Positions 58-27,768 of a stretch of 27,969 nucleotides of DNA are shown in pieces; the stretch's first letter is position 1, and the number at the start of each line of letters is the position of its first letter. The position numbers and the translations under genes were made by a program. Source of the DNA: a virus (Duplodnaviria; Caudoviricetes); the IMG/VR virus record IMGVR_UViG_3300042335_000320, positions 1 through 27,969 of that record; one strand, 5' to 3'. The notes under the pieces are model-generated. The model had not been told where the DNA came from, ran no database searches, and saw nothing but the letters and a program-made list of their open reading frames with translations.

Positions 58-312
58 ATGATTGAAACAACAATAAGATTTCGTAACTACTCAATACAAG
101 TAGTGGCAGAACACCACGAAGGGTATTCCGCAACACTGGAAGAGCCCGGACTGGATGAACAATTTGATATAATATCTTTAGTAATTAAAGAGACAGAATA
201 TGAGCCGGAGGAACTAGCCGAACTTCTGGAAATGACAGAAAAGGAACTTGATGATTTTTTATTTTTAAGACTTAAACAACAAATGGATTATGACAAACAC
301 AACAATTTTTGA
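58..312 (+). CDS. hypothetical acidic phage protein
   Basis: 84-aa ORF with ATG after an A/T-rich leader; overlaps the next gene; no recognisable motif. Confidence 0.7.
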   Translation: MIETTIRFRNYSIQVVAEHHEGYSATLEEPGLDEQFDIISLVIKETEYEPEELAELLEMTEKELDDFLFLRLKQQMDYDKHNNF

Positions 313-1171: not shown

Positions 1172-1981
1172 ATGAATTATGTACAAACAGAACCAATGGT
1201 AATTTACCAAGTTCAAAATGCTGAAAACGTAAACAATGTTTACAAAACATCTGATTTATCAATCTTTAAACAAATTGGAGGGAATAGAATCCCAAATTTA
1301 CAACACGTGAAAAGATTGACAGATTCAATTTTAAATTATGGAATGAAATGTAATCCTATTTTAGTAAATGAAAAAATGGAGGTAATTGATGGTCAACATC
1401 GATTGTTGGCAGCAAAAGAAGCTAATTCATTCGTTTATTTTATTATTCTAAATGGATATACACTTTCGGAAGTTCACACCTTGAATCTTAATCAGAAAAA
1501 CTGGTCAAAAAAAGATTTTATGGAAGGTTATGCAAACATGGGTATTGATCCTTATATTAAATTAAGAGAATTTTCAAATAAACATGATGATTATTCATTT
1601 TATGATTGTATTTCATTTTCTCAAAATACAGTTGGTGATGGTCATAAAATGTTAGCTCAAAAAATTAATAAAAAAAATAATAAACAAATAGAAGTTTTTG
1701 AAGAAGGAACATGGAATTGCGGAGATATGAATATTGCTAATGAATGGGCAAATAAAATAAGAATGATAAAAACTTATTATTTTAATTATAACCGTTCAGT
1801 TTTTGTTCATACAATGATTTCTTTATTTAAAAACCAAAATTTTGATTTTAATGAATTTATGCACAAGCTAAGACTTCAACCGACTGCATTGGTTGATTGT
1901 GCAAATCGTGAACAATACAAAACTCTTATTGAAGATATTTATAATTATAAAAATAGAAATAAAGTAAATTTAAGATTCTAA
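1172..1981 (+). CDS. ParB/Srx-like N-terminal domain protein
   Basis: NPILVNEKMEVIDGQHRLLAAKE matches the ParB-N GxHR motif; more AT-rich than its neighbours. Confidence 0.82.
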   Translation: MNYVQTEPMVIYQVQNAENVNNVYKTSDLSIFKQIGGNRIPNLQHVKRLTDSILNYGMKCNPILVNEKMEVIDGQHRLLAAKEANSFVYFIILNGYTLSEVHTLNLNQKNWSKKDFMEGYANMGIDPYIKLREFSNKHDDYSFYDCISFSQNTVGDGHKMLAQKINKKNNKQIEVFEEGTWNCGDMNIANEWANKIRMIKTYYFNYNRSVFVHTMISLFKNQNFDFNEFMHKLRLQPTALVDCANREQYKTLIEDIYNYKNRNKVNLRF

Positions 1982-1985
1982 TAAT

Positions 1986-1993
1986 TATATTTG
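1986..1993 (+). promoter_or_regulatory. possible Bacteroidota -7 promoter box (TATATTTG)
   Basis: Exact TAnnTTTG just after the ParB-like stop codon; no clear -33 TTG. Confidence 0.4.
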
Positions 1994-2023
1994 TACTGTT
2001 TACAGGTTTAGTAATTGGCATTC

Positions 2024-2061
2024 AAAGAGGTTGGTAAAAAAGATACTGACCTCTTTTTTTT
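2024..2061 (+). terminator. intrinsic terminator
   Basis: AAAGAGGTTGGTA/TACTGACCTCTTT stem whose G-U pairs work on the + strand, followed by T8. Confidence 0.8.
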
Positions 2062-2067
2062 ATACAC

Positions 2068-2100
2068 AAAAAAAACCCTTCCTAATTGCTCAGGAAAGGC
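2068..2100 (-). terminator. intrinsic terminator on the minus strand
   Basis: Minus strand reads GCCUUUCCUGA-GCAA-UUAGGAAGGGU then a U run: 11-bp stem with a GNRA tetraloop; the G-U pairs form only in this orientation. Confidence 0.85.
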
Positions 2101-2136
2101 TAACAAATTAAAATATATAACAACAAATTTTATGAT
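2068..2136 (-). ncRNA. putative ~70-nt small RNA
   Basis: Bounded by a consensus minus-strand promoter (2141-2171) and a minus-strand terminator (2068-2100); no ORF. Confidence 0.6.
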
Positions 2137-2140
2137 ACAA

Positions 2141-2171
2141 CAAATGTAATCAATTTACTTGAAAATGTCAA
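2141..2171 (-). promoter_or_regulatory. Bacteroidota sigma-A type promoter (minus strand)
   Basis: On the minus strand: TTG (2171-2169), 20-nt spacer, TACATTTG (2148-2141). Confidence 0.68.
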
Positions 2172-2189
2172 TTAACCTCACTATATTTG
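2159..2189 (+). promoter_or_regulatory. Bacteroidota sigma-A type promoter (plus strand)
   Basis: TTG (2159-2161), 20-nt spacer, TATATTTG (2182-2189), 14 nt upstream of the ATG at 2204. Confidence 0.7.
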
Positions 2190-2203: not shown

Positions 2204-2470
2204 ATGAAACAAACAACTTTAATGATAGTCGCGGCCGGATTGATACTCTTTACCTTTGCGATAATTTATATTGTCCGCTACCAGACATCAGCCGTTCATC
2301 AGATCTTCAAACACCATCGAGAACAACTCGAAAACGAAATTCAAGCCATTAAGTTGGAACGGGAACGACTGAAAAAATCAATTGATAGTCTGGAATACAG
2401 AATAAACCTCGAACAGGAAAACCTAATAATCGACATAGACAACTTCCTAAAAAATCATGGCAAAAGGTAG
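2204..2470 (+). CDS. N-terminally membrane-anchored coiled-coil protein (spanin-like candidate)
   Basis: Hydrophobic LMIVAAGLILFTFAIIYIV followed by an amphipathic helix. Confidence 0.6.
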   Translation: MKQTTLMIVAAGLILFTFAIIYIVRYQTSAVHQIFKHHREQLENEIQAIKLERERLKKSIDSLEYRINLEQENLIIDIDNFLKNHGKR

Positions 2471-2789
2471 TTTAATTTTTATCTTAATTTTGTTCTGTTT
2501 TCGAACAATGGCGCAGTCAGAATTACCGGAATGTTTGAATTTATTACAAAGGTCGAAGGTCATGATTCTGCAACAGGATACACTCATTAAACTGCTCAAA
2601 GACGATGCAAGGCTGATCACTTCCGAAAATATTGTACTTAGAAAACAGTTCGACAATTCCGAAATAACAATGCGATATCTAAACATAGAACTCAAAAAAG
2701 AGAAAACACAAAAAAAGGTCTGGCAGATGATCGGAATTTCAGCACTCACCGGATTATTAACAACATCAATAATTTTAATCACAAAATGA
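2457..2789 (+). CDS. exported coiled-coil protein with C-terminal membrane helix (spanin-like candidate)
   Basis: Signal-like N-terminus with TMA|Q, coiled coil, then KKVWQMIGISALTGLLTTSIILITK. Confidence 0.6.
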   Translation: MAKGSLIFILILFCFRTMAQSELPECLNLLQRSKVMILQQDTLIKLLKDDARLITSENIVLRKQFDNSEITMRYLNIELKKEKTQKKVWQMIGISALTGLLTTSIILITK

Positions 2790-3427
2790 ATTTTGAATTA
2801 CTACAATCGCAACTGATTCAAATATCAAAGCTAAAAAATAATGATGGGCAGATTCCAGACGTACCAAAAAACCCTCGTTTTATTAAAGATACAAGGTTTG
2901 AAAAGTTAGTCAAAAGTTTGCAAGATAACCCAGAAATGTTATCAGCGCGCGAACTATTAGTCTACCAATACGAAAATCAGTTTATTGTCATAGGTGGCAA
3001 CATGAGACTAAGGGCAGCAAAGGAATTAGGATATAAGGAACTGCCATGCAAAGTATTGACAGACCTGACCAGCGAACAGATACGAGCCATTGTCATCAAA
3101 GACAATATTAGTTTTGGCAGCGACGATTGGGAAAGTTTATCTAACGAGTGGGATTCTTTAGAACTGGAAGAATGGGGAATGGAAGTACCTAATTTTGTCA
3201 ATACACTTGAAATAAATCAAATGACAGAAAATGAACTCGATTTTACAGAAGAATTTGACCCAATAGGCGAAAGTAAAGGTTTAGTTAGATTAGTAGTAAT
3301 ATTTGATGGAATGATTGAAGCAAAAGACTGGATTGATAAAAATGTTCCAGAATTAGAATATAAAAAGAAAGGCAATGATGATAACATAATATTACAGGTA
3401 AATTTAGCTACGAATTATGGTATATAA
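2786..3427 (+). CDS. ParB-like nuclease domain protein of the type linked to phage DNA-modification genes
   Basis: NPRFIKDTRFEKLVKSL...VIGGNMRLRAAKELG...IKDN...WD...LEEWG. Confidence 0.88.
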   Translation: MNFELLQSQLIQISKLKNNDGQIPDVPKNPRFIKDTRFEKLVKSLQDNPEMLSARELLVYQYENQFIVIGGNMRLRAAKELGYKELPCKVLTDLTSEQIRAIVIKDNISFGSDDWESLSNEWDSLELEEWGMEVPNFVNTLEINQMTENELDFTEEFDPIGESKGLVRLVVIFDGMIEAKDWIDKNVPELEYKKKGNDDNIILQVNLATNYGI

Positions 3428-4193
3428 ATATCCTATATATATTATAAGTAAAGGCAGATATGAAAAACCATTGACTGCAAAATTATTTGAAAAATGCAAT
3501 ATTGATTATTTAATTGCAGTTGAACCACAAGAATATGACTTGTATGTTAATAAATTAGGAATAGATAAAGTTTTAAAATTACCATTTTCAAATTTAGGTT
3601 TAGGTAGTTATCCTGCTAGAAATTATTGTTGGGAACATGCCAAGTCTAAAGGTTATAAATATCATTGGTTATTTGATGATAATTTTTTGATGTTTAAAAA
3701 ATGGATAAATCAAAAAAGGGTTAGAATTGAAAATATACCAGATGCTATAAAATATGTAGAATTATTTTCAGAAAAGACTAACATAGATATTTTAGGATTT
3801 GAAAGACCAGAATTTTCTTGTAAAGTACCTAAAAAACCATTTAAGTTTAATTGTCATGTTTATTCAGCTATGTTAATAAAAAATGATTTATCTTATCGTT
3901 GGAGATTAAAATATAATGAAGATGTAGATTTGTGTTTACAAGTTTTACATAATAAAGGTACAACTGCAAGTTGTATATATTATTTAGCTAAAAAAGTAGA
4001 TACTGGTCAAAAAATGAAAGGTGGCAATCAAGATGAACTTTACAAAGGCAATGACCCTAAAAAAAAATTGTTAAAAGCAAAAATGTTAGAAGCTGTATGG
4101 CCACAATATGCAAAAACCGTAATTCGATTTAATAGATACCATCATTTTGTAGACTGGAAAGTATTTAAGAAAAATTTAAAACTCAATAAATAA
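3417..4193 (+). CDS. TET-associated glycosyltransferase (TAGT)/GREB1-related GT-A protein
   Basis: YPIYIISKGR, ARNYCWEHA, WLFDDN, YNEDVDLCLQVL and QKMKGGN motifs typical of phage TAGT-like enzymes. Confidence 0.78.
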   Translation: MVYKYPIYIISKGRYEKPLTAKLFEKCNIDYLIAVEPQEYDLYVNKLGIDKVLKLPFSNLGLGSYPARNYCWEHAKSKGYKYHWLFDDNFLMFKKWINQKRVRIENIPDAIKYVELFSEKTNIDILGFERPEFSCKVPKKPFKFNCHVYSAMLIKNDLSYRWRLKYNEDVDLCLQVLHNKGTTASCIYYLAKKVDTGQKMKGGNQDELYKGNDPKKKLLKAKMLEAVWPQYAKTVIRFNRYHHFVDWKVFKKNLKLNK

Positions 4194-4722: not shown

Positions 4723-5035
4723 ACCTTTCAAAAAAGGCAAAGACGAAAGGCGAAACGAAAACGGTCGACCGAAAGACGAACTGCGGGAAATTAAAACCGT
4801 TATCGCCGATTTACTCAAACAACAGAAAAACAATCAGCAACTTGTTGACGGCTTAATGACCGTTGTGGTAAACAAGGCGCTCAAAGGCGATTTAAAGGCC
4901 GTTGATATGCTTTTGTCGTACTGCTATGGCAAACCAACACAACGTACCGAAATAACAGGCGCAGATGGCGAAAAAATAGATTTTAAAGTGGAAGTATTAC
5001 AAGGCGAAAAAACACTACCATACAAACCGGAATGA
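4700..5035 (+). CDS. terS: terminase small subunit (DUF5681-like N-terminus)
   Basis: NLKPFKKG...NGRPK, KALKGDLKA, YGKP and EITGADG motifs; directly upstream of TerL. Confidence 0.75.
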   Translation: MPNPENLKPFKKGKDERRNENGRPKDELREIKTVIADLLKQQKNNQQLVDGLMTVVVNKALKGDLKAVDMLLSYCYGKPTQRTEITGADGEKIDFKVEVLQGEKTLPYKPE

Positions 5036-6228
5036 AAACAACCTGCCTTTATTTGTGGAATAAATACCCGGACAAATATTATCCAAAATTAGATAATAAA
5101 AAAAAGGTTACAATCGTAAATCAGGGCGGAACTTCCTCCGGGAAAACTTATTCAATACTGCAGGTTTTGTTTACAATCGCAATCGAGAATCCTAAATTTG
5201 TTATAACTATTGTAGGTCAGGATATACCAAACTTAAAACGCGGTGCGATAAGAGACGCTCAAAATATTGTATCTGAAAATCTAAGTATTTCAAGTCAGAT
5301 TCTAAAATGGAATAATAGCGATAAAATTTACACGTTCCGTAACGGTTCGATAATCGAGTTCACAAGTTATGAAAGCAGTCAGGATGCAAAGAATGGAAAA
5401 AGACACGTTCTATTTGTAAACGAGGCTAATGGTATTGATTACAATGTTTTTTCTGAACTCGATCTGCGTACAAGTTACCGGACATTTATAGACTACAATC
5501 CAAACGCTGAATTTTGGGTACATGAAAAAGTGATACCACTTCCAAACGTGGCCTATTTTATCAGCAACTTTGAACACAATCCATTTTTAAGCGAAAATAT
5601 TATAAATGGTATATTAAGACTAAAAACGATTGACACTCAACTCTGGCGCGTTTATGGATTAGGACAGACCGGAAAAATACAAGGCTTGGTTTTTAACTAT
5701 CGAACAACGGACAGGATGCCAGAACAACTTAATAAACTTGCTTACGGTATGGACTTTGGATTCACGAATGACCCAACAACACTCGTAAAATGTGGCCTAT
5801 CCGATGGCGTTTTATATGGCGAAGAATTGATTTATCAAACAGGACTAACAAACCGAGATATAAACAAACTATTGATTGAGGCCGGCGTCACTAAACATGA
5901 TTTAATATTTGCTGATAGCGCAGACCCGAAAAGTATTCAAGAATTAAAACTTTACGGATGGAATATTAAAGGCGCGGACAAAGGCGCAGACAGTATAAAC
6001 TATTCCATCGATATTTTACGAAGCTATGGCGATATAAACCTCACGCGCAATTCTTACAATTGGATTAAGGAAGCAAATAGTTACAAATGGAAGGAGGAAC
6101 GATCTGGAACGAAAATAAACAAACCGATTGACGCGTTTAATCATTGTTGGGACGCGTGCCGATACTACGCGCTCGGAATGTTAGCAGCAAACAAAGGAAA
6201 AGGCATTTTATCATTCACAACTAAATAA
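5032..6228 (+). CDS. terL: terminase large subunit, PBSX family
   Basis: Walker A QGGTSSGKT, Walker B LFVNEAN, DYNP, GMDFGFTNDPT, ADSADPKSI, NHCWDACRY. Confidence 0.96.
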   Translation: MKTTCLYLWNKYPDKYYPKLDNKKKVTIVNQGGTSSGKTYSILQVLFTIAIENPKFVITIVGQDIPNLKRGAIRDAQNIVSENLSISSQILKWNNSDKIYTFRNGSIIEFTSYESSQDAKNGKRHVLFVNEANGIDYNVFSELDLRTSYRTFIDYNPNAEFWVHEKVIPLPNVAYFISNFEHNPFLSENIINGILRLKTIDTQLWRVYGLGQTGKIQGLVFNYRTTDRMPEQLNKLAYGMDFGFTNDPTTLVKCGLSDGVLYGEELIYQTGLTNRDINKLLIEAGVTKHDLIFADSADPKSIQELKLYGWNIKGADKGADSINYSIDILRSYGDINLTRNSYNWIKEANSYKWKEERSGTKINKPIDAFNHCWDACRYYALGMLAANKGKGILSFTTK

Positions 6229-6235
6229 TTTTATC

Positions 6236-6577
6236 ATGACAAACGAAGAATTAAAAACACTAACTGAAATTATCGTACTCAGCGCAAAATATCCTTCCGA
6301 CTTTGGACTACGCGCACTATCTCAGCAGGTTCAAAGATACCTACAAAACAACAAAGGTTCTGGGAACAGATTTCAACCTCAAAAAAACACTGGCGGAGGA
6401 ATTTTAAAGCCGGAAGAAAAAACAATATCAGAAATCATAACCGAAAAGCGAGTTACCTTGATGGAGGCAAAAGAAATCCGCGAGGAACTACTCGCAAACG
6501 AACCAGAACAGGAAGCAAAACCAAAGCGTTTTAAAAAGTCTAACAAATACAAAGCGGACGAAGATGCTCAAAATTAG
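6236..6577 (+). CDS. hypothetical protein
   Basis: 113-aa ORF filling the gap after TerL. Confidence 0.7.
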   Translation: MTNEELKTLTEIIVLSAKYPSDFGLRALSQQVQRYLQNNKGSGNRFQPQKNTGGGILKPEEKTISEIITEKRVTLMEAKEIREELLANEPEQEAKPKRFKKSNKYKADEDAQN

Positions 6578-7262
6578 TACAGAATCAGGAATTGAAATAA
6601 ACATACCTTCAGAACTCAAAGAAATAACCCTTAAACGTTATATCGACTTTTTGCAATTTGTCGAACCAACAAAGCCGGAATGCTTAAAAAAGATTGACAA
6701 GGCCGAAACGGAAGAGGAACGCGAAACCGCTATTTCAGAAATTGACGAACTGACCATTTCCAAACAGGTGCATCCGTATTTTATCCGTTGCATCTGTTAC
6801 TGGTCTGGTAACAATGAAAGCGATTTGCAAGATTTGGAGGTTGGATCATTAGTTTGGTTATTTCAATACATCACTAAGTTACTAAACAACCTTCCGGAGC
6901 CGGAATATAGCAACGTGATTGAGGTTAACGGCGAATTTTGGTATTTACCGGAGCGTTACATGGAAAACAGTACGGTTATTGAATACGCAGAGTCAGCACA
7001 ATTCCAACAAAACATGAAAGATTTATCCGGCGGCGATTGGGTAGCAATGGCAAAAATACTTTGCGTTCTATGTAGGAAGAAAGATGAAAAATATCATAGC
7101 TCATTACTAAAGCGCGAAAAGATGTTTTTGGATTGGAACTTATACGATGTTTGGCGCGTGGGTTTTTTTTTGTTGAAACGCAACGAACTATTGCATCTAA
7201 GTTTTCAAGCCTATATAAACGCTCAAGCTTTATCGAAATTAAGGCGGGAATTGAGCAATTAA
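6564..7262 (+). CDS. putative tail assembly chaperone (gpG-like, zero-frame product)
   Basis: IPSELKEITLKRY N-terminus; VGFF encoded by the slippery G GGT TTT TTT; overlaps a -1 frame ORF. Confidence 0.62.
   Translation: MLKISTESGIEINIPSELKEITLKRYIDFLQFVEPTKPECLKKIDKAETEEERETAISEIDELTISKQVHPYFIRCICYWSGNNESDLQDLEVGSLVWLFQYITKLLNNLPEPEYSNVIEVNGEFWYLPERYMENSTVIEYAESAQFQQNMKDLSGGDWVAMAKILCVLCRKKDEKYHSSLLKREKMFLDWNLYDVWRVGFFLLKRNELLHLSFQAYINAQALSKLRRELSN
7160..7171 (+). other. programmed -1 frameshift slippery site G_GGT_TTT(_TTT_TT)
   Basis: X XXY YYZ heptamer in frame with 6564..7262; the -1 frame stays open to 7459. Confidence 0.75.
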
Positions 7263-8064: not shown

Positions 8065-8609
8065 CACAACTATTTGAGCAATTAGGTAACGAAGTCGGTA
8101 AGGTTATTGTAATGGCCGTTAAAAAGGCTTTTATTATGCAAGGCCATAAAATGACAGGCGCGTTAAACGATAGCATAGAATACAAAGTTAACGCGACTAT
8201 GAATAGCGTTATGCTCGAATTTTTGATGTTAGATTACGGTATGATACAAAACTTTGGAATAGCGCCTGAAAAGATTCCATTTAATCCGGGCAGCGGAGCA
8301 AAAAAATCAAATTATATCGATGGTTTGAAAAAGTTTGCTAAATTAAAGTTAGGAAAAAACGATAAGGAAGCCGAGCGCGTAGCTTTTGCCATTGCATACA
8401 AACAAAAAAAAGAGGGAATGCCTACAAATGGCAGTAAACGAATGGGTAAAAAGACCGGAGCGGTATTGGACGCGCTCAAAGATTCTGAAGACGAAGTACA
8501 AAAACTAATAAATAAGGCTTTTGAAGAACTTTTAATAGGTAAATTTTACGATGTTATAACCGAAGTGAACAAAAAAGATTCTGATAATATTAAATTTTAT
8601 ATAAAATGA
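8061..8609 (+). CDS. putative neck/tail completion protein (HK97 gp10-like)
   Basis: Basic protein with TGALNDSIEY motif and AFAIA..QKKEG. Confidence 0.55.
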   Translation: MTQLFEQLGNEVGKVIVMAVKKAFIMQGHKMTGALNDSIEYKVNATMNSVMLEFLMLDYGMIQNFGIAPEKIPFNPGSGAKKSNYIDGLKKFAKLKLGKNDKEAERVAFAIAYKQKKEGMPTNGSKRMGKKTGAVLDALKDSEDEVQKLINKAFEELLIGKFYDVITEVNKKDSDNIKFYIK

Positions 8610-16478: not shown

Positions 16479-16504
16479 TTGTTGTTATATCTTTGTAACA
16501 ACAA
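16479..16504 (+). promoter_or_regulatory. promoter -7 box embedded in a perfect inverted repeat (operator candidate), copy 1
   Basis: TTGTTGTTA-TATCTTTG-TAACAACAA. Confidence 0.75.
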
Positions 16505-16544
16505 ATAAGGGAATTAAAATTATAACACACAAAAAATTAAGATT

Positions 16545-16883
16545 ATGAACACGATTAACGAATACGGAAACATTAAAAATGCCAATAAAGCATTATATGC
16601 TATTTCAAAAGGCGGTAAATTTAACGGTATAGTTTATGGCAAAAAACACAATGATTTAAAAACAGATATGACAGTTTATGTATCTGGTGATATTTACCCA
16701 TTAGGAAGAATTTCGCATAAATTTGTAGAAGATTTCAAAGCTGAATTTTTAGCAGCAGTTAATAATACAGAAATTGTTTCTCAACAAAAAACTAACATAT
16801 CAAAACCAACTGCAAAAGTTATTGACGAAAAGAAACAATATTCCACAATGGCTTGGTTAATGGATGGCATGAATTACGAATAA
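16545..16883 (+). CDS. hypothetical protein (first gene of accessory operon)
   Basis: 112-aa ORF with A-rich leader. Confidence 0.75.
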   Translation: MNTINEYGNIKNANKALYAISKGGKFNGIVYGKKHNDLKTDMTVYVSGDIYPLGRISHKFVEDFKAEFLAAVNNTEIVSQQKTNISKPTAKVIDEKKQYSTMAWLMDGMNYE

Positions 16884-16911
16884 AATTTTTAACACTTAAA
16901 ACTATTATCAC

Positions 16912-17094
16912 ATGAAAACTTTAAAATTAATCGGTCAAATTAAAGAAACTTATCTTGGTTTTTTCAGAAGGGTTCAACCAGATGTTGTTCAATGGGTTCC
17001 AAAAGAAGGAAAAATACAGGAACTTACAAACAAGCAAGCGCAAGAAATGTATTCTTACCAAAAGAAAAACGGTTATACAATACCAAACAAATAA
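16912..17094 (+). CDS. hypothetical protein
   Basis: 60 aa, MKT start after an A-rich leader. Confidence 0.7.
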   Translation: MKTLKLIGQIKETYLGFFRRVQPDVVQWVPKEGKIQELTNKQAQEMYSYQKKNGYTIPNK

Positions 17095-17126
17095 ATTTTA
17101 ACAAACTTTTTAACAACAAAAATTTT

Positions 17127-17375
17127 ATGATTATGAGAATGACAATGGAAGGATGGAGAAAGTCGCTCGGTGGCGCTATCAGTTGGAAAATGTTTGACCT
17201 AATGATTGATCCAGATAAGGGTCACCTAAGCAGGTTATCAAAGGAATGGCAAGAAATGGCAGCCGAATTCCAAACAAACTGGCAATATTTAAGTAAAGAG
17301 GAAAAACTTGAATTTATAAGTACGCACCCTCAAAAAAACGACAAACTTTATGTAGACTTTTTAAAAACACTTTAA
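17127..17375 (+). CDS. hypothetical protein
   Basis: Probable start ATG at 17127 (MIMRMTMEGW), after the intergenic A-rich leader; in frame with track ORF 16992..17375. Confidence 0.65.
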   Translation: MIMRMTMEGWRKSLGGAISWKMFDLMIDPDKGHLSRLSKEWQEMAAEFQTNWQYLSKEEKLEFISTHPQKNDKLYVDFLKTL

Positions 17376-17823: not shown

Positions 17824-17918
17824 TAAGATTTTTTTTAGTCTTAATAATCGTTTTAATAACCGCCGGCGCTTTTGTTTCTTTGCATAACTACAAAAGGAAA
17901 TATAAACGCCGAAGATAG
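17820..17918 (+). CDS. 32-aa membrane micro-protein with basic tail
   Basis: MIRFFLVLIIVLITAGAFVSLHNYKRKYKRRR, from the ATG at 17820. Confidence 0.6.
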   Translation: MIRFFLVLIIVLITAGAFVSLHNYKRKYKRRR

Positions 17919-17947
17919 TTTTCATTTTTTTGTTTTCCATAAGTGTT

Positions 17948-17979
17948 GACCTCTTACCACTCCGGTAAGGGGTTTTTTT
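17948..17979 (+). terminator. intrinsic terminator closing the accessory operon
   Basis: ACCTCTTACC-actcc-GGTAAGGGGT followed by a T run. Confidence 0.85.
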
Positions 17980-23468: not shown

Positions 23469-24102
23469 GCCTCAGGAGGTCGTAAATACAGGATTATATC
23501 GAGCCGCGCCGGTTAATGCAAGGTTTGATATAAATTTAATAAGTCCTTATATTTTAAGTACAGAGGAACGGTTTTTAATTCCGGTTCTGGGGCGCGCTTT
23601 TTATGATGATTTAGTTTTAGAACAAAATGCGGCGGTAAGTAATTACAATCCAGACGCGGGCGCGTTGGTTAATAAATTTGTTCCTCCAGCACCGGCACCA
23701 TACGAAACGCTATGGGTATCTTATTTGCTTAGATACGCAGCCTATACTGTTTATTACGAAGCATTACCTTTTATAACTTTTCAAGTTGCGAGCAAAGGTA
23801 TTTTTTTGAATGATTCTGAGTTCGCTCAAAATGGCGGCGCTCAGGCGTTTAAGATTATGCAAGACAACATGATGCAAAAGATTGATAACCTTAAAGAATA
23901 TTTAATTAAATTTCTTTGTCAAAATAAGGCCGATTATCCGTTATTTGATGCAAAAAAACATTGTCCATGCGACTCAGGTTGTGATGATTGCGGTTGCGGT
24001 TCAAATCATTACCTTTGCAATTATTATAGCATATATGGTGTTTATTGTAACTCATGCCAGAACAAACGTAATTCTTCAACCAATATAATTTTTTACCGAT
24101 GA
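23446..24102 (+). CDS. head-tail adaptor (DUF6712-like) with Cys-rich tail
   Basis: Follows the portal; PYI...E..FLIPVLGRAFYDDL, KGI and FLCQNKADYPLF motifs. Confidence 0.62.
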   Translation: MTMQTLIKPQEVVNTGLYRAAPVNARFDINLISPYILSTEERFLIPVLGRAFYDDLVLEQNAAVSNYNPDAGALVNKFVPPAPAPYETLWVSYLLRYAAYTVYYEALPFITFQVASKGIFLNDSEFAQNGGAQAFKIMQDNMMQKIDNLKEYLIKFLCQNKADYPLFDAKKHCPCDSGCDDCGCGSNHYLCNYYSIYGVYCNSCQNKRNSSTNIIFYR

Positions 24103-25367
24103 CCTTATATACAATTGTTAAACAGTCGACAGGAAATGTCGTATTAAAAGATGCAAGCACAAATTTAATTTTATTTGTCTTTGTGAATGTTAATGCTTTA
24201 GAGGTTAAAAGCGATGCGGAAGTAATTGTTAAGTTTGGCTTTAATCAATGGAAGAGTTTATACGCTCAGCAGGTTAAATTTACACAAATAGAACCAGCAG
24301 CGGCGATACCTTTCACCGGCGATGCTTACGATTTGGCCGACTTGTTATCAGGGTCTTTTTTTTTTGAATTAAGCGGCGGGAGTCAAAATTTAAGTCAGGT
24401 TTTAACGGTTGGAAATTCAGCCGGTGCAACTAGTATTGATGTTAATAATAATGATTTATTAAACGTAGACAAAACAACGTTTAATTTAGCAACGACTGAA
24501 ATTTCTGGCGTTGGTCAACTAAATTGGAATGATACTGACGGAACTTTAAATTTAGGTTTAAAGGGTGGAGCAGTAACTTTACAAATAGGTCAGGAGATTG
24601 TCGCAAGGGTAGTAAATAAAACTGTTCCATTGATAGATTTGTTGGAAGCTAACTATCAAGTCGTAAGAATTGCCGGTGCGCAAGGTCAACGCCTTGCAGT
24701 TCGTTTGGCTCAGTCCGATACGGAAGCAAACTGTCAAAGTACACTTGGAATAGTAACAGAAACAATAAATAAAAATCAGGAGGGTTTTGTTACGGTTTTG
24801 GGGCAGGTCAGACAAATTAACACAACGGGAAGTTTACAGGGCGAAACGTGGAATGATGGCGATGTACTTTATTTAAGCCCAACTACGGCAGGCGCAATTA
24901 CAAAAGTAAAACCGACATTTCCGAATAAAATTATAATTGTCGGTTACGTTGAATATGCGCACGCGGTTAACGGTAAAATTTACGCAAATATAAACCGTTT
25001 AGAAACATCTATTATTGACATACAAGCCGCCGCGAGTGATGAAACAACTGCACTAACAACAGGAACGGCAAAGGTTACATTTAGAACGCCAGCGGCCTTC
25101 ACGCTTACAGGGGTACGCGCAAGTTTAACAACGGCGCAGGCCTCAGGGTCAATTTTTACGGTAGATATAAATCAAAACGGATCTTCGGTATTGGGTACTA
25201 AATTGACAATTGACAATACAGAAAAAACAAGCGTAACGGCAGCCACGCCCGCGACAATAACGACCTCAGCAATTTTGGACGATGCAGAAATTACCGTTGA
25301 CATTGACCAGATTGGAAACGGAACGGCAAAAGGTTTAAAAATAACTTTAATAGGCGTAAGGTCATGA
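24099..25367 (+). CDS. virion fibre/appendage protein
   Basis: QNLSQVLTVGN, GQLNWNDTDGTL, GDVLYLSPTTAG and a C-terminal SDETTAL...AKGLKITL module; modular fibre-type composition. Confidence 0.68.
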   Translation: MTLYTIVKQSTGNVVLKDASTNLILFVFVNVNALEVKSDAEVIVKFGFNQWKSLYAQQVKFTQIEPAAAIPFTGDAYDLADLLSGSFFFELSGGSQNLSQVLTVGNSAGATSIDVNNNDLLNVDKTTFNLATTEISGVGQLNWNDTDGTLNLGLKGGAVTLQIGQEIVARVVNKTVPLIDLLEANYQVVRIAGAQGQRLAVRLAQSDTEANCQSTLGIVTETINKNQEGFVTVLGQVRQINTTGSLQGETWNDGDVLYLSPTTAGAITKVKPTFPNKIIIVGYVEYAHAVNGKIYANINRLETSIIDIQAAASDETTALTTGTAKVTFRTPAAFTLTGVRASLTTAQASGSIFTVDINQNGSSVLGTKLTIDNTEKTSVTAATPATITTSAILDDAEITVDIDQIGNGTAKGLKITLIGVRS

Positions 25368-27438: not shown

Positions 27439-27460
27439 GTTGTTATATATTTGTAACAAC
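27439..27460 (+). promoter_or_regulatory. promoter -7 box embedded in a perfect inverted repeat (operator candidate), copy 2
   Basis: GTTGTTA-TATATTTG-TAACAAC; 21 of 22 nt identical to 16481-16502. Confidence 0.78.
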
Positions 27461-27489
27461 TTATTAAATAACAATTAAAAATTATTACA

Positions 27490-27768
27490 ATGAAAACAAA
27501 TTATGTTTGGATTAGACGCAATCACGCACCATGTGATATTTTCGAGGAAAGTACACACAAAAGAAATGAAAGAATCAAAAACTACAATGATTGGTTTTTA
27601 GCTATTCAATTGGACGAAAACTTTTATCAGTCATTTAGTGGAAATCAGTTCTGGGTTCAAAAAATTGAGGTTAGTACGGAGGTAGTTACAAGACCTTACA
27701 ATAATGACGAACTTCACGAACTTTACGAACAGGAAGACGAACTTAAAAAGATTTTTTCAATACTTTAA
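27490..27768 (+). CDS. hypothetical early protein
   Basis: 92 aa, MKT start, first gene after the promoter. Confidence 0.75.
   Translation: MKTNYVWIRRNHAPCDIFEESTHKRNERIKNYNDWFLAIQLDENFYQSFSGNQFWVQKIEVSTEVVTRPYNNDELHELYEQEDELKKIFSIL

What the first reader, a model, noticed from the sequence alone, without database searches (positions are those of the whole stretch)
2068..2171. Self-contained minus-strand small RNA antisense to the start-codon region of a gene 15 kb away
Seen: all protein genes run on +, yet this region has a complete minus-strand unit: promoter TTG-N20-TACATTTG, about 36 nt of U-rich sequence, and an 11-bp GCAA-loop terminator. The RNA would begin near 2136 as 5'-AUCAUAAAAUUUGUUGUUA. 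Its complement (2118-2136, TAACAACAAATTTTATGAT) matches 17111-17131 (TAACAACAAAAATTTTATGAT) except for two extra As, and covers the ATG at 17127. A further TAACAAA block matches (2101-2107 vs 17099-17105). The complementarity starts at the predicted 5' end. Known: Bacteroidota mostly lack Shine-Dalgarno sites and initiate translation on A-rich leaders. Inference: a trans-acting phage sRNA that masks the A-rich leader and AUG of an accessory gene, acting as a shut-off switch or antitoxin-like control.
Basis: partly seen in the sequence, partly recalled or inferred. Interest (0 to 1): 0.85.

Follow-up and report, generated by a model that had tools for sequence, protein, structure and literature searches.

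The report
Phage RNA mirroring early-gene leaders
A Bacteroidota-type phage carries a conserved reverse-strand promoter motif, 36 U-rich bases and a terminator hairpin, and those bases are complementary to the start regions of several of its own early genes and change in step with them in related phages, so they likely make one small RNA that would turn down those genes together, though no transcript has been seen.

Summary
Minus-strand TTG-N20-TACATTTG, a 36-nt U-rich stretch and a terminator lie at 2171→2068. The stretch is unchanged in 5 of 5 close relatives; in one, the terminator stem has two compensatory pairs.

The single-target reading fails. Gene 17127 is absent from 19 of 19 other records, including two near-complete phages that keep the unit. 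Its match alone is not beyond chance (31 of 300 shuffles).

The stretch instead mirrors a leader tag shared by several early genes (16545, 17127, 290). In blind scans it ranks first of 5,000-7,000 windows in three close genomes. A distant clade has a different leader tag, and at the same position a different antisense stretch, a 3' UTR. Each stretch fits its own clade's leaders (0-1 of 100 shuffles) and not the other's (31-59 of 100). Support is weaker in a third clade and absent in two genomes of a fourth.

Best reading: a trans-acting sRNA that likely blocks translation of early genes as a group, working like GibS/FopS or P1 C4, in phages with no detected integrase or repressor. No RNA data were available. 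This scan noted similar RNAs in other Bacteroidota phages (unchecked notes).

The parts
2169..2171 (-). TTG at the -33 position of the minus-strand promoter motif; one arm of an imperfect inverted repeat 2159-2171 whose other arm is the -33 TTG of the plus-strand promoter
   Evidence: invariant in 5 aligned sequences
2141..2148 (-). -7 box TACATTTG of the Bacteroidota sigma-ABfr type; start site predicted at 2137/2136
   Evidence: consensus from PMC7366714 passages; invariant; start site inferred, not mapped
2101..2136 (-). 36-nt U-rich seed, weakly folded, complementary to early-gene leaders and AUG
   Evidence: identical in G001, G004, G005, L239, L240
2068..2101 (-). intrinsic terminator: 10-12 bp stem, GCAA loop (GUAA in some relatives), U8 tail
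   Evidence: 2 pairs changed on both sides, 2 on one side and 2 loop-closing pairs broken, all in L239
2024..2061 (+). plus-strand terminator closing the upstream early block, converging tail to tail with the unit's terminator
   Evidence: conserved
2159..2189 (+). divergent, overlapping plus-strand promoter motif (TTG-N20-TATATTTG) ahead of gene 2204 and the packaging and structural genes
   Evidence: downstream gene families; 'late' is inferred from gene content
16507..16549 (+). predicted target: leader and AUG of gene 16545, first gene after the early-type promoter at 16488
   Evidence: rank 1 of 40 starts; pairing spans -38 to +4; leader kept with a different gene behind it in G001, G004, G019
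   Evidence: rank 2 of 40, rank 1 of 38; same leader type before the 17393 ortholog in relatives
262..294 (+). predicted weaker target: start region of the Mu Gam-like gene 290
   Evidence: rank 3 of 40 and 3 of 38; family
16481..16502 (+). early-type promoter TATCTTTG inside a 7-bp inverted repeat
27439..27493 (+). second early-type promoter (TATATTTG at 27446, same inverted repeat) and leader of gene 27490, a weak predicted target
   Evidence: rank 7 of 40

Best explanation
The unit is a conserved minus-strand promoter motif, seed and terminator that likely makes a ~69-nt trans-acting small RNA, whose 36-nt seed is predicted to pair with a leader tag and AUG shared by several of the phage's own early genes and would block their translation together. 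Shown: the sequence elements, their conservation, compensatory pairs in the terminator, the complementarity, and its clade-matched change. Inferred: that host sigma-ABfr polymerase transcribes it from about 2136; that pairing over roughly -38 to +5 hides the upstream adenines and AUG that Bacteroidota ribosomes use instead of a Shine-Dalgarno site; that the effect is to damp or switch off early genes. Least certain is timing: the promoter overlaps the promoter of the packaging and structural block back to back, so a role at the early-to-late change is my best guess.
For: (1) Seed identical in 5 of 5 close relatives while the flanking genes differ by 5-10%. (2) In L239 the stem changes and still folds at -18.6 kcal/mol on the minus strand. 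(3) In G001 the three promoter-proximal early genes rank 1, 2, 3 of 61 starts. (4) Reciprocal specificity: window seed against 7 clade-A early leaders mean z -2.93 (0 of 100 shuffles), against 6 clade-B leaders -0.22 (32 of 100). The two clade-B seeds at the same position score -4.16 and -3.37 against B (0 and 1 of 100) and -0.17 and +0.26 against A (31 and 59 of 100). (5) Blind scans of both strands: the unit is rank 1 of 5678, 7279 and 7449 windows in G000, G001, G004. A terminator-adjacent window is rank 1 in 6 of 13 records with own early leaders and in 0 of 13 with own late leaders, although only 0.2-1.2% of windows lie beside a terminator. (6) Early leaders pair better than late dedicated leaders: p 0.076, 0.005, 0.026 in G000, G001, G004, with no such preference in four clade B/C genomes. 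(7) Precedent: GibS and FopS repress by pairing at the start region in Bacteroides (PMC7366714, PMC11697453; passages).
Against: No transcript has been seen. Duplexes are AU-rich, gapped and modest (-12 to -19 kcal/mol). Against late leaders the unit still ranks 4, 4 in G000 and G001, so part of the signal is generic. In clade C the matching 3' UTRs are weak by the energy test (10, 4, 59 of 100) and rank 1, 3, 3, 11, 35 in the scans. G009 and G008 show nothing (ranks 32, 331), and the homologous minus-strand gene in G002 ends at a terminator with no obvious anti-leader. All compensatory pairs come from one sequence (22 of 500 shuffles). The neighbouring 1980-2067 intergenic stretch is also 93-100% conserved. 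The early/late split and start codons are my own calls, records within a clade are not independent, and clade B was noticed before it was tested.
Confidence: 0.65

Rival explanations
1. By-product and insulator: the late promoter is symmetric and fires backwards, the terminator only protects the upstream early block from antisense transcription, and the U-rich stretch is an ordinary pre-terminator sequence that resembles any A-rich leader.
For: The two -33 elements form an imperfect inverted repeat. Divergent firing from symmetric promoters is reported as common (10.1101/2020.01.31.928960, search listing only). U-rich stretches precede many terminators in these phages. The unit ranks 4 against late leaders in two genomes. 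Best-of-38 match reached by 31 of 300 shuffles.
Against: It does not predict clade-matched sequence. Two other pre-terminator stretches of the window show no fit to own early leaders (49 and 38 of 100), and a third is marginal (6 of 100). The seed is invariant while the stem drifts. In clade B the same position carries a different seed on an mRNA 3' end.
Confidence: 0.16
2. DNA site or promoter mimic: the stretch is a binding site for a phage or host regulator that also binds the early promoters, or an RNA that acts on those promoters.
For: The seed shares 15 nt in the same sense with the promoter at 27446 and 12 nt with that at 16488. These promoters sit in a 7-bp inverted repeat.
Against: Clade-B seeds share only 6-8 nt T-rich runs with their own promoters, and the clade-C seed 6-9 nt. 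In clade B the matching stretch lies between two terminators and a stop codon, about 400 nt from the nearest promoter motifs. The matched tags keep a fixed distance to AUGs, also of internal genes. No HTH_3 protein in 5 of 5 records.
Confidence: 0.07
3. One reading: a dedicated antitoxin-like or shut-off RNA for the 82-aa gene at 17127.
For: Best single match by duplex energy, 2 of 300 shuffles for that leader alone; pairing begins at the predicted 5' end.
Against: Gene absent from 19 of 19 other records, including G001 and G004 that keep the seed. Other leaders pair equally well. The protein has no Pfam or PHROG family at E 0.001, so toxicity is unsupported.
Confidence: 0.04
4. Plus-strand relic or mini-gene: 2101-2149 is a duplicated early leader with a 5-codon frame, left from a lost gene.
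For: The plus strand reads leader, ATG, 5 codons, stop. In G008 and G009 an A-tract, hairpin, leader and ATG is the true leader of a structural gene.
Against: A plus-strand terminator lies just upstream and there is no plus-strand promoter motif between it and the ATG. The hairpin folds far better on the minus strand. The short frames differ between clades (5, 7, 3 codons) or are absent. A relic would not stay invariant while neighbours drift.
Confidence: 0.04
5. The RNA is real but acts mainly on host mRNAs with similar A-rich leaders, or in a carrier state to exclude related phages.
For: Bacteroidota leaders are A-rich in general (PMC6847099 abstract; PMC7366714 passage). P1/P7 C4 RNA underlies heteroimmunity (PMC12197685 section 9).
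Against: The seed tracks the phage's own leader tag. No tyrosine integrase in 5 of 5 records, 4 of them at least 90% complete. The host is unknown, so host targets were not tested.
Confidence: 0.04

Closest known systems
GibS and FopS sRNAs of Bacteroides thetaiotaomicron (PMC7366714, PMC11697453; passages and section 8 read)
   Same: [quoted passage not shown]
   Different: Those are host multicopy RNAs with a conserved R1 seed that control glycan and metabolic genes (a FopS sequence was also noted in one Bacteroides phage). This is a single-copy phage unit with a clade-specific seed aimed at the phage's own early leaders. No Rfam match.
C4 antisense RNA of phages P1/P7 (PMC12197685 section 9); P4 CI RNA (recalled, search listing only)
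   Same: Phage RNA acting by pairing near a ribosome-binding region of the phage's own genes; specificity differs between related phages.
   Different: C4 is structured, presents its pairing sites in loops, and controls one antirepressor operon in temperate phages. Here the seed is nearly unfolded, the targets are scattered early genes, and no integrase or HTH_3 repressor was found.
Lambda OOP and aQ RNAs (PMC12197685 passages)
   Same: Short phage RNAs from the strand opposite to neighbouring genes that steer development.
   Different: Those overlap their single target in cis; this unit overlaps no gene.

Membership tests
FopS/GibS family | 5' single-stranded seed plus intrinsic terminator | tested here: met
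   weak 5' hairpin and a strong terminator
FopS/GibS family | canonical sigma-ABfr promoter motif | tested here: met
   exact -7 box; TTG rather than full TTTG at -33; activity not shown
FopS/GibS family | R1 seed homology or Rfam family match | tested here: inconclusive
   No Rfam match reaches gathering score (best RF02838, 21 bits against 43). I could not confirm that a FopS model is in this Rfam copy, and the R1 letters are in a figure I could not see.
FopS/GibS family | 12-15 copies per genome | tested here: not met
   One copy per phage record
FopS/GibS family | RbpB binding; repression shown by reporter or EMSA | not testable with these tools
   needs bench work
C4 / CI antisense RNA | match to the C4 Rfam model | tested here: not met
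   no C4-type hit at E up to 10 in 1960-2230 or E up to 1 in the window
C4 / CI antisense RNA | temperate context with repressor and antirepressor operon | tested here: not met
   PF00589 0 of 5 and PF01381 0 of 5 records; no such Pfam hit in 49 selected ORFs of G004 and G017; unrecognised regulators remain possible
Type I antitoxin RNA | co-occurs with one cognate small toxin gene | tested here: not met
   gene 17127 in 0 of 19 other records; the seed is kept without it
Trans-encoded base-pairing sRNA (general class) | complementarity to target start regions that changes with the targets | tested here: met
   clear for clades A and B, weak for C, absent in G008 and G009
Trans-encoded base-pairing sRNA (general class) | a discrete transcript exists | not testable with these tools
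   no reads could be laid; see Tried and rejected

The most novel reading that the evidence does not exclude
These phages run their early-to-late switch with RNA alone. Early and accessory genes carry a lineage-specific leader tag, new genes join the regulon by landing behind a tagged leader, and one minimal anti-tag RNA (stand-alone in this clade, an mRNA 3' end in others) silences all of them. Because tag and anti-tag drift together, the same RNA would also set which relatives a phage can exclude.
Probability: 0.3. Interest if true: 0.82.

Novelty: new variant of a known kind. Interest (0 to 1): 0.64.

Why it matters
How small Bacteroidota phages without a recognisable repressor turn off their early genes is open. 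This gives a 69-nt candidate with named targets and a built-in control: clade-A and clade-B RNAs should each repress only their own leaders. It would extend start-region blocking by sRNA, shown for Bacteroides host genes, to a phage's own gene programme, and show a regulator moving between an mRNA 3' end and a stand-alone gene. Four library searches listed no paper on such an RNA in a Bacteroidota phage; the library lacks most subscription journals. A short orthogonal RNA-leader pair would also be a useful repression tool in a phylum that lacks Shine-Dalgarno control.

Tried and rejected
Expression: the one search for sequencing runs listed no RNA holder, so no reads were laid; this is no evidence either way.

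Rfam: nothing at gathering score.

Relatives of the 82-aa gene: no locus returned from viral contigs.

Intermediate relatives through gene 2204: the six loci at 58-61% identity (L241-L243, L247-L249) belong to a differently organised phage group, where another gene lies directly upstream and the unit is absent. L159 (terminase 90%) ends before the locus.

The 110-aa minus-strand protein of clades B-D: no Pfam family; only hypothetical relatives. Its function, and so the timing of its 3' UTR, stays unknown.

The plus-strand stretch 1997-2064 as a second anti-leader RNA: no fit to early leaders (49 of 100 shuffles) and no shared top target in G000 and G001.

The G017 plus-strand unit looked matched by eye but failed the test over clade-C leaders (61 of 100).

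In one search, G018 scored 103 because my distance cut-off missed its 3' UTR locus; ranked directly it is 4 with early and 270 with late leaders.

IntaRNA and RNAup were not run; RNAduplex and cofold ensemble energies were used instead. Host mRNAs were not scanned because the host is unknown. No supplements were read; FopS/GibS seed letters in figures or supplements could bear on membership.

Full report
Setting. The window is a whole 27,969-nt virus record, about 77% complete. It encodes terminase, portal, protease, tape-measure, Gam-like, ERF and ParB-like proteins, all on the plus strand. Its promoters are of the TAnnTTTG type, and the terminase relatives in GTDB are almost all in Bacteroidota genomes, the closest at 90% identity. 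The host is otherwise unknown. No tyrosine integrase or HTH_3 repressor was found in 5 of 5 records, four of them at least 90% complete, nor in 49 selected ORFs of two near-complete relatives.

The observation. The minus strand reads TTG, 20 nt, TACATTTG, 36 U-rich nt, a 10-12 bp GCAA-loop hairpin and eight U. It folds at -17.3 kcal/mol; the plus strand of the same DNA gives -6.7. The promoter motif alone is common (9 in the window), but this is the only full motif followed closely by a terminator. The unit overlaps, back to back, a plus-strand promoter motif ahead of the packaging and structural genes, and its terminator converges with the one that closes the upstream early block. There is no Rfam match at gathering score.

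Conservation. Five close relatives hold the unit: G001, G004, G005, L239 and L240. The -7 box and the 36-nt seed are unchanged in all five, while the flanking genes differ by 5-10% (four of the five compared). In L239 the terminator stem is rewritten: two pairs change on both sides, two on one side, and the two loop-closing pairs open, yet it folds at -18.6. This rests on one sequence (22 of 500 shuffles). The neighbouring intergenic stretch is also 93-100% conserved, so seed conservation alone is modest evidence.

The proposed target. The 17127 leader is the best of 38 by duplex energy (-17.5), but shuffled seeds find an equally good leader in 31 of 300 trials. The 16545 leader is as good (-17.3), and two such leaders arise in only 4 of 300. 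The 82-aa gene is in 0 of 19 other records. G001 and G004 carry a different gene in that cassette. The leader type, however, persists in G001, G004 and G019 in front of the ortholog of gene 17393. The site matters, not the gene.

Several early targets. With the full 69-nt RNA and ensemble energies, the top three of 40 starts in the window are 16545, 17127 and 290. In G001 the three genes directly behind early-type promoters rank 1, 2 and 3 of 61. In G004 they rank 4, 5 and 9 of 55, and the methylase gene behind a fourth such promoter is not among the top nine. Pairing covers about -38 to +5 around the AUG in most cases. Early leaders pair better than late dedicated leaders in clade A (p 0.076, 0.005, 0.026) and not in four other genomes.

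Change in step. More distant relatives (terminase 62-71%) carry, at the same position, a minus-strand gene for a 110-aa protein of unknown function (8 of these records plus G006, which lacks the terminase). In clade B (G003, G006, G018) its 3' UTR, just before the terminator, is complementary to a different leader tag, the one that clade B's early genes carry. Against promoter-proximal leaders chosen by promoter pattern, the window seed fits clade A (0 of 100 shuffles) and not B (32 of 100), and the two B seeds fit B (0 and 1 of 100) and not A (31 and 59 of 100). Sixteen seeds were tested. Among the other thirteen, own-clade results were 0, 4, 4, 6, 10, 15, 38, 49, 59 and 61 of 100, and three clade-D seeds had no own-clade set.

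Blind scans. I slid 32-nt windows over both strands, left out windows antisense to a called start, and ranked them by mean complementarity to own early leaders. The unit came first in G000, G001 and G004. With a wider exclusion over 13 records, the first terminator-adjacent window ranked 1, 1, 1 (clade A); 1, 103 (B); 1, 1, 3, 11, 10 (C); 5, 32, 331 (D). With late leaders the ranks were 4, 4, 8, 74, 150, 25, 79, 49, 63, 75, 65, 8, 129. The 103 is a cut-off miss; that locus ranks 4 directly. Only 0.2-1.2% of windows lie beside a terminator. The records within a clade are related, and the early/late labels and starts are mine. The rank of 4 with late leaders shows that part of the signal in clade A is generic.

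Mechanism. Bacteroidota mRNAs lack Shine-Dalgarno sites and rely on upstream adenines (PMC6847099 abstract; PMC7366714 passage). GibS and FopS repress by pairing at the start region, and FopS consists of a single-stranded seed plus terminator (passages and section 8). I infer that the unit makes such an RNA and that it hides the tagged leaders of early genes. Timing is a guess from the overlap with the late promoter; constant damping or exclusion of kin remain possible. Transcription, pairing and repression are all unshown.

Rivals. A promoter by-product with an insulating terminator is the main rival (0.16). It explains the layout but not the clade-matched seed. A DNA-site or promoter-mimic reading rests on 15 nt shared with the promoter at 27446, but other clades share only short T-rich runs with their promoters. 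A dedicated antitoxin and a plus-strand relic are each unlikely.

Comparison and novelty. It works like GibS/FopS and, as a phage RNA aimed at its own genes, like P1/P7 C4 (PMC12197685 section 9). It is not shown to belong to either family. Four searches listed no paper describing this in a Bacteroidota phage. Earlier notes of this scan describe similar RNAs in other, mostly temperate, Bacteroidota phages. I reached the multi-target reading before seeing them, did not check them, and do not count them as support. Verdict: real feature, new variant of a known kind, interest 0.64, best explanation 0.65.

Noticed in passing
window 1986-2064 (+): A TATATTTG box directly after the stop codon of the last upstream gene, about 30 nt, then the plus-strand terminator; 93-100% conserved in relatives. 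Possibly a second short RNA converging on the unit; it does not match early leaders.
   Followed up: partly
window 16481-16502 and 27439-27460 (+): Both early-type promoters sit inside a 7-bp inverted repeat that flanks the -7 box; kept in clades A and B, not in C. Looks like an operator, but no HTH_3 regulator was found.
   Followed up: partly
window 1172-1981 (+): The 269-aa ParB-like gene is an insertion; G001, G004, G005, L239 and L240 join the 114-aa gene directly to position 1980.
   Followed up: partly
window 16545-17375 (+): Accessory cassette behind the 16488 promoter: three small genes here are replaced by one 92-aa gene in G001 and G004, with the leaders kept.
   Followed up: partly
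window 17915-17975 (+): The 3' UTR before the cassette's terminator also reads as an anti-leader with a CAU; marginal against clade-A leaders (6 of 100), better against clade B (1 of 100).
   Followed up: partly
L003 9590-9922 (-) and homologs in G002, G006, G010, G011, G014-G018, G028, G029: A 110-aa protein, the only clear minus-strand gene in these phages, divergent from the late block; no Pfam family, viral Atlas clusters named hypothetical.
   Followed up: partly
G016 24818-24890 (+), G017 8256-8330 (+), G010 23963-24070 (+), oriented as the terminase: Short plus-strand box-seed-terminator units at the end of the accessory cassette; the G016 one ranks first in the blind scan, the G017 one fails the shuffle test.
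   Followed up: partly
window 2786-4193 (+): ParB-like gene followed by a beta-glucosyl-HMC-alpha-glucosyltransferase-like gene; relatives swap in methylase and other modification genes at this spot.
   Followed up: no
window 2204-2789 (+): Two small genes with hydrophobic N-termini and likely coiled coils; homologs at about 60% follow the tape-measure region in another phage group, possibly lysis (spanin-like) genes.
   Followed up: no
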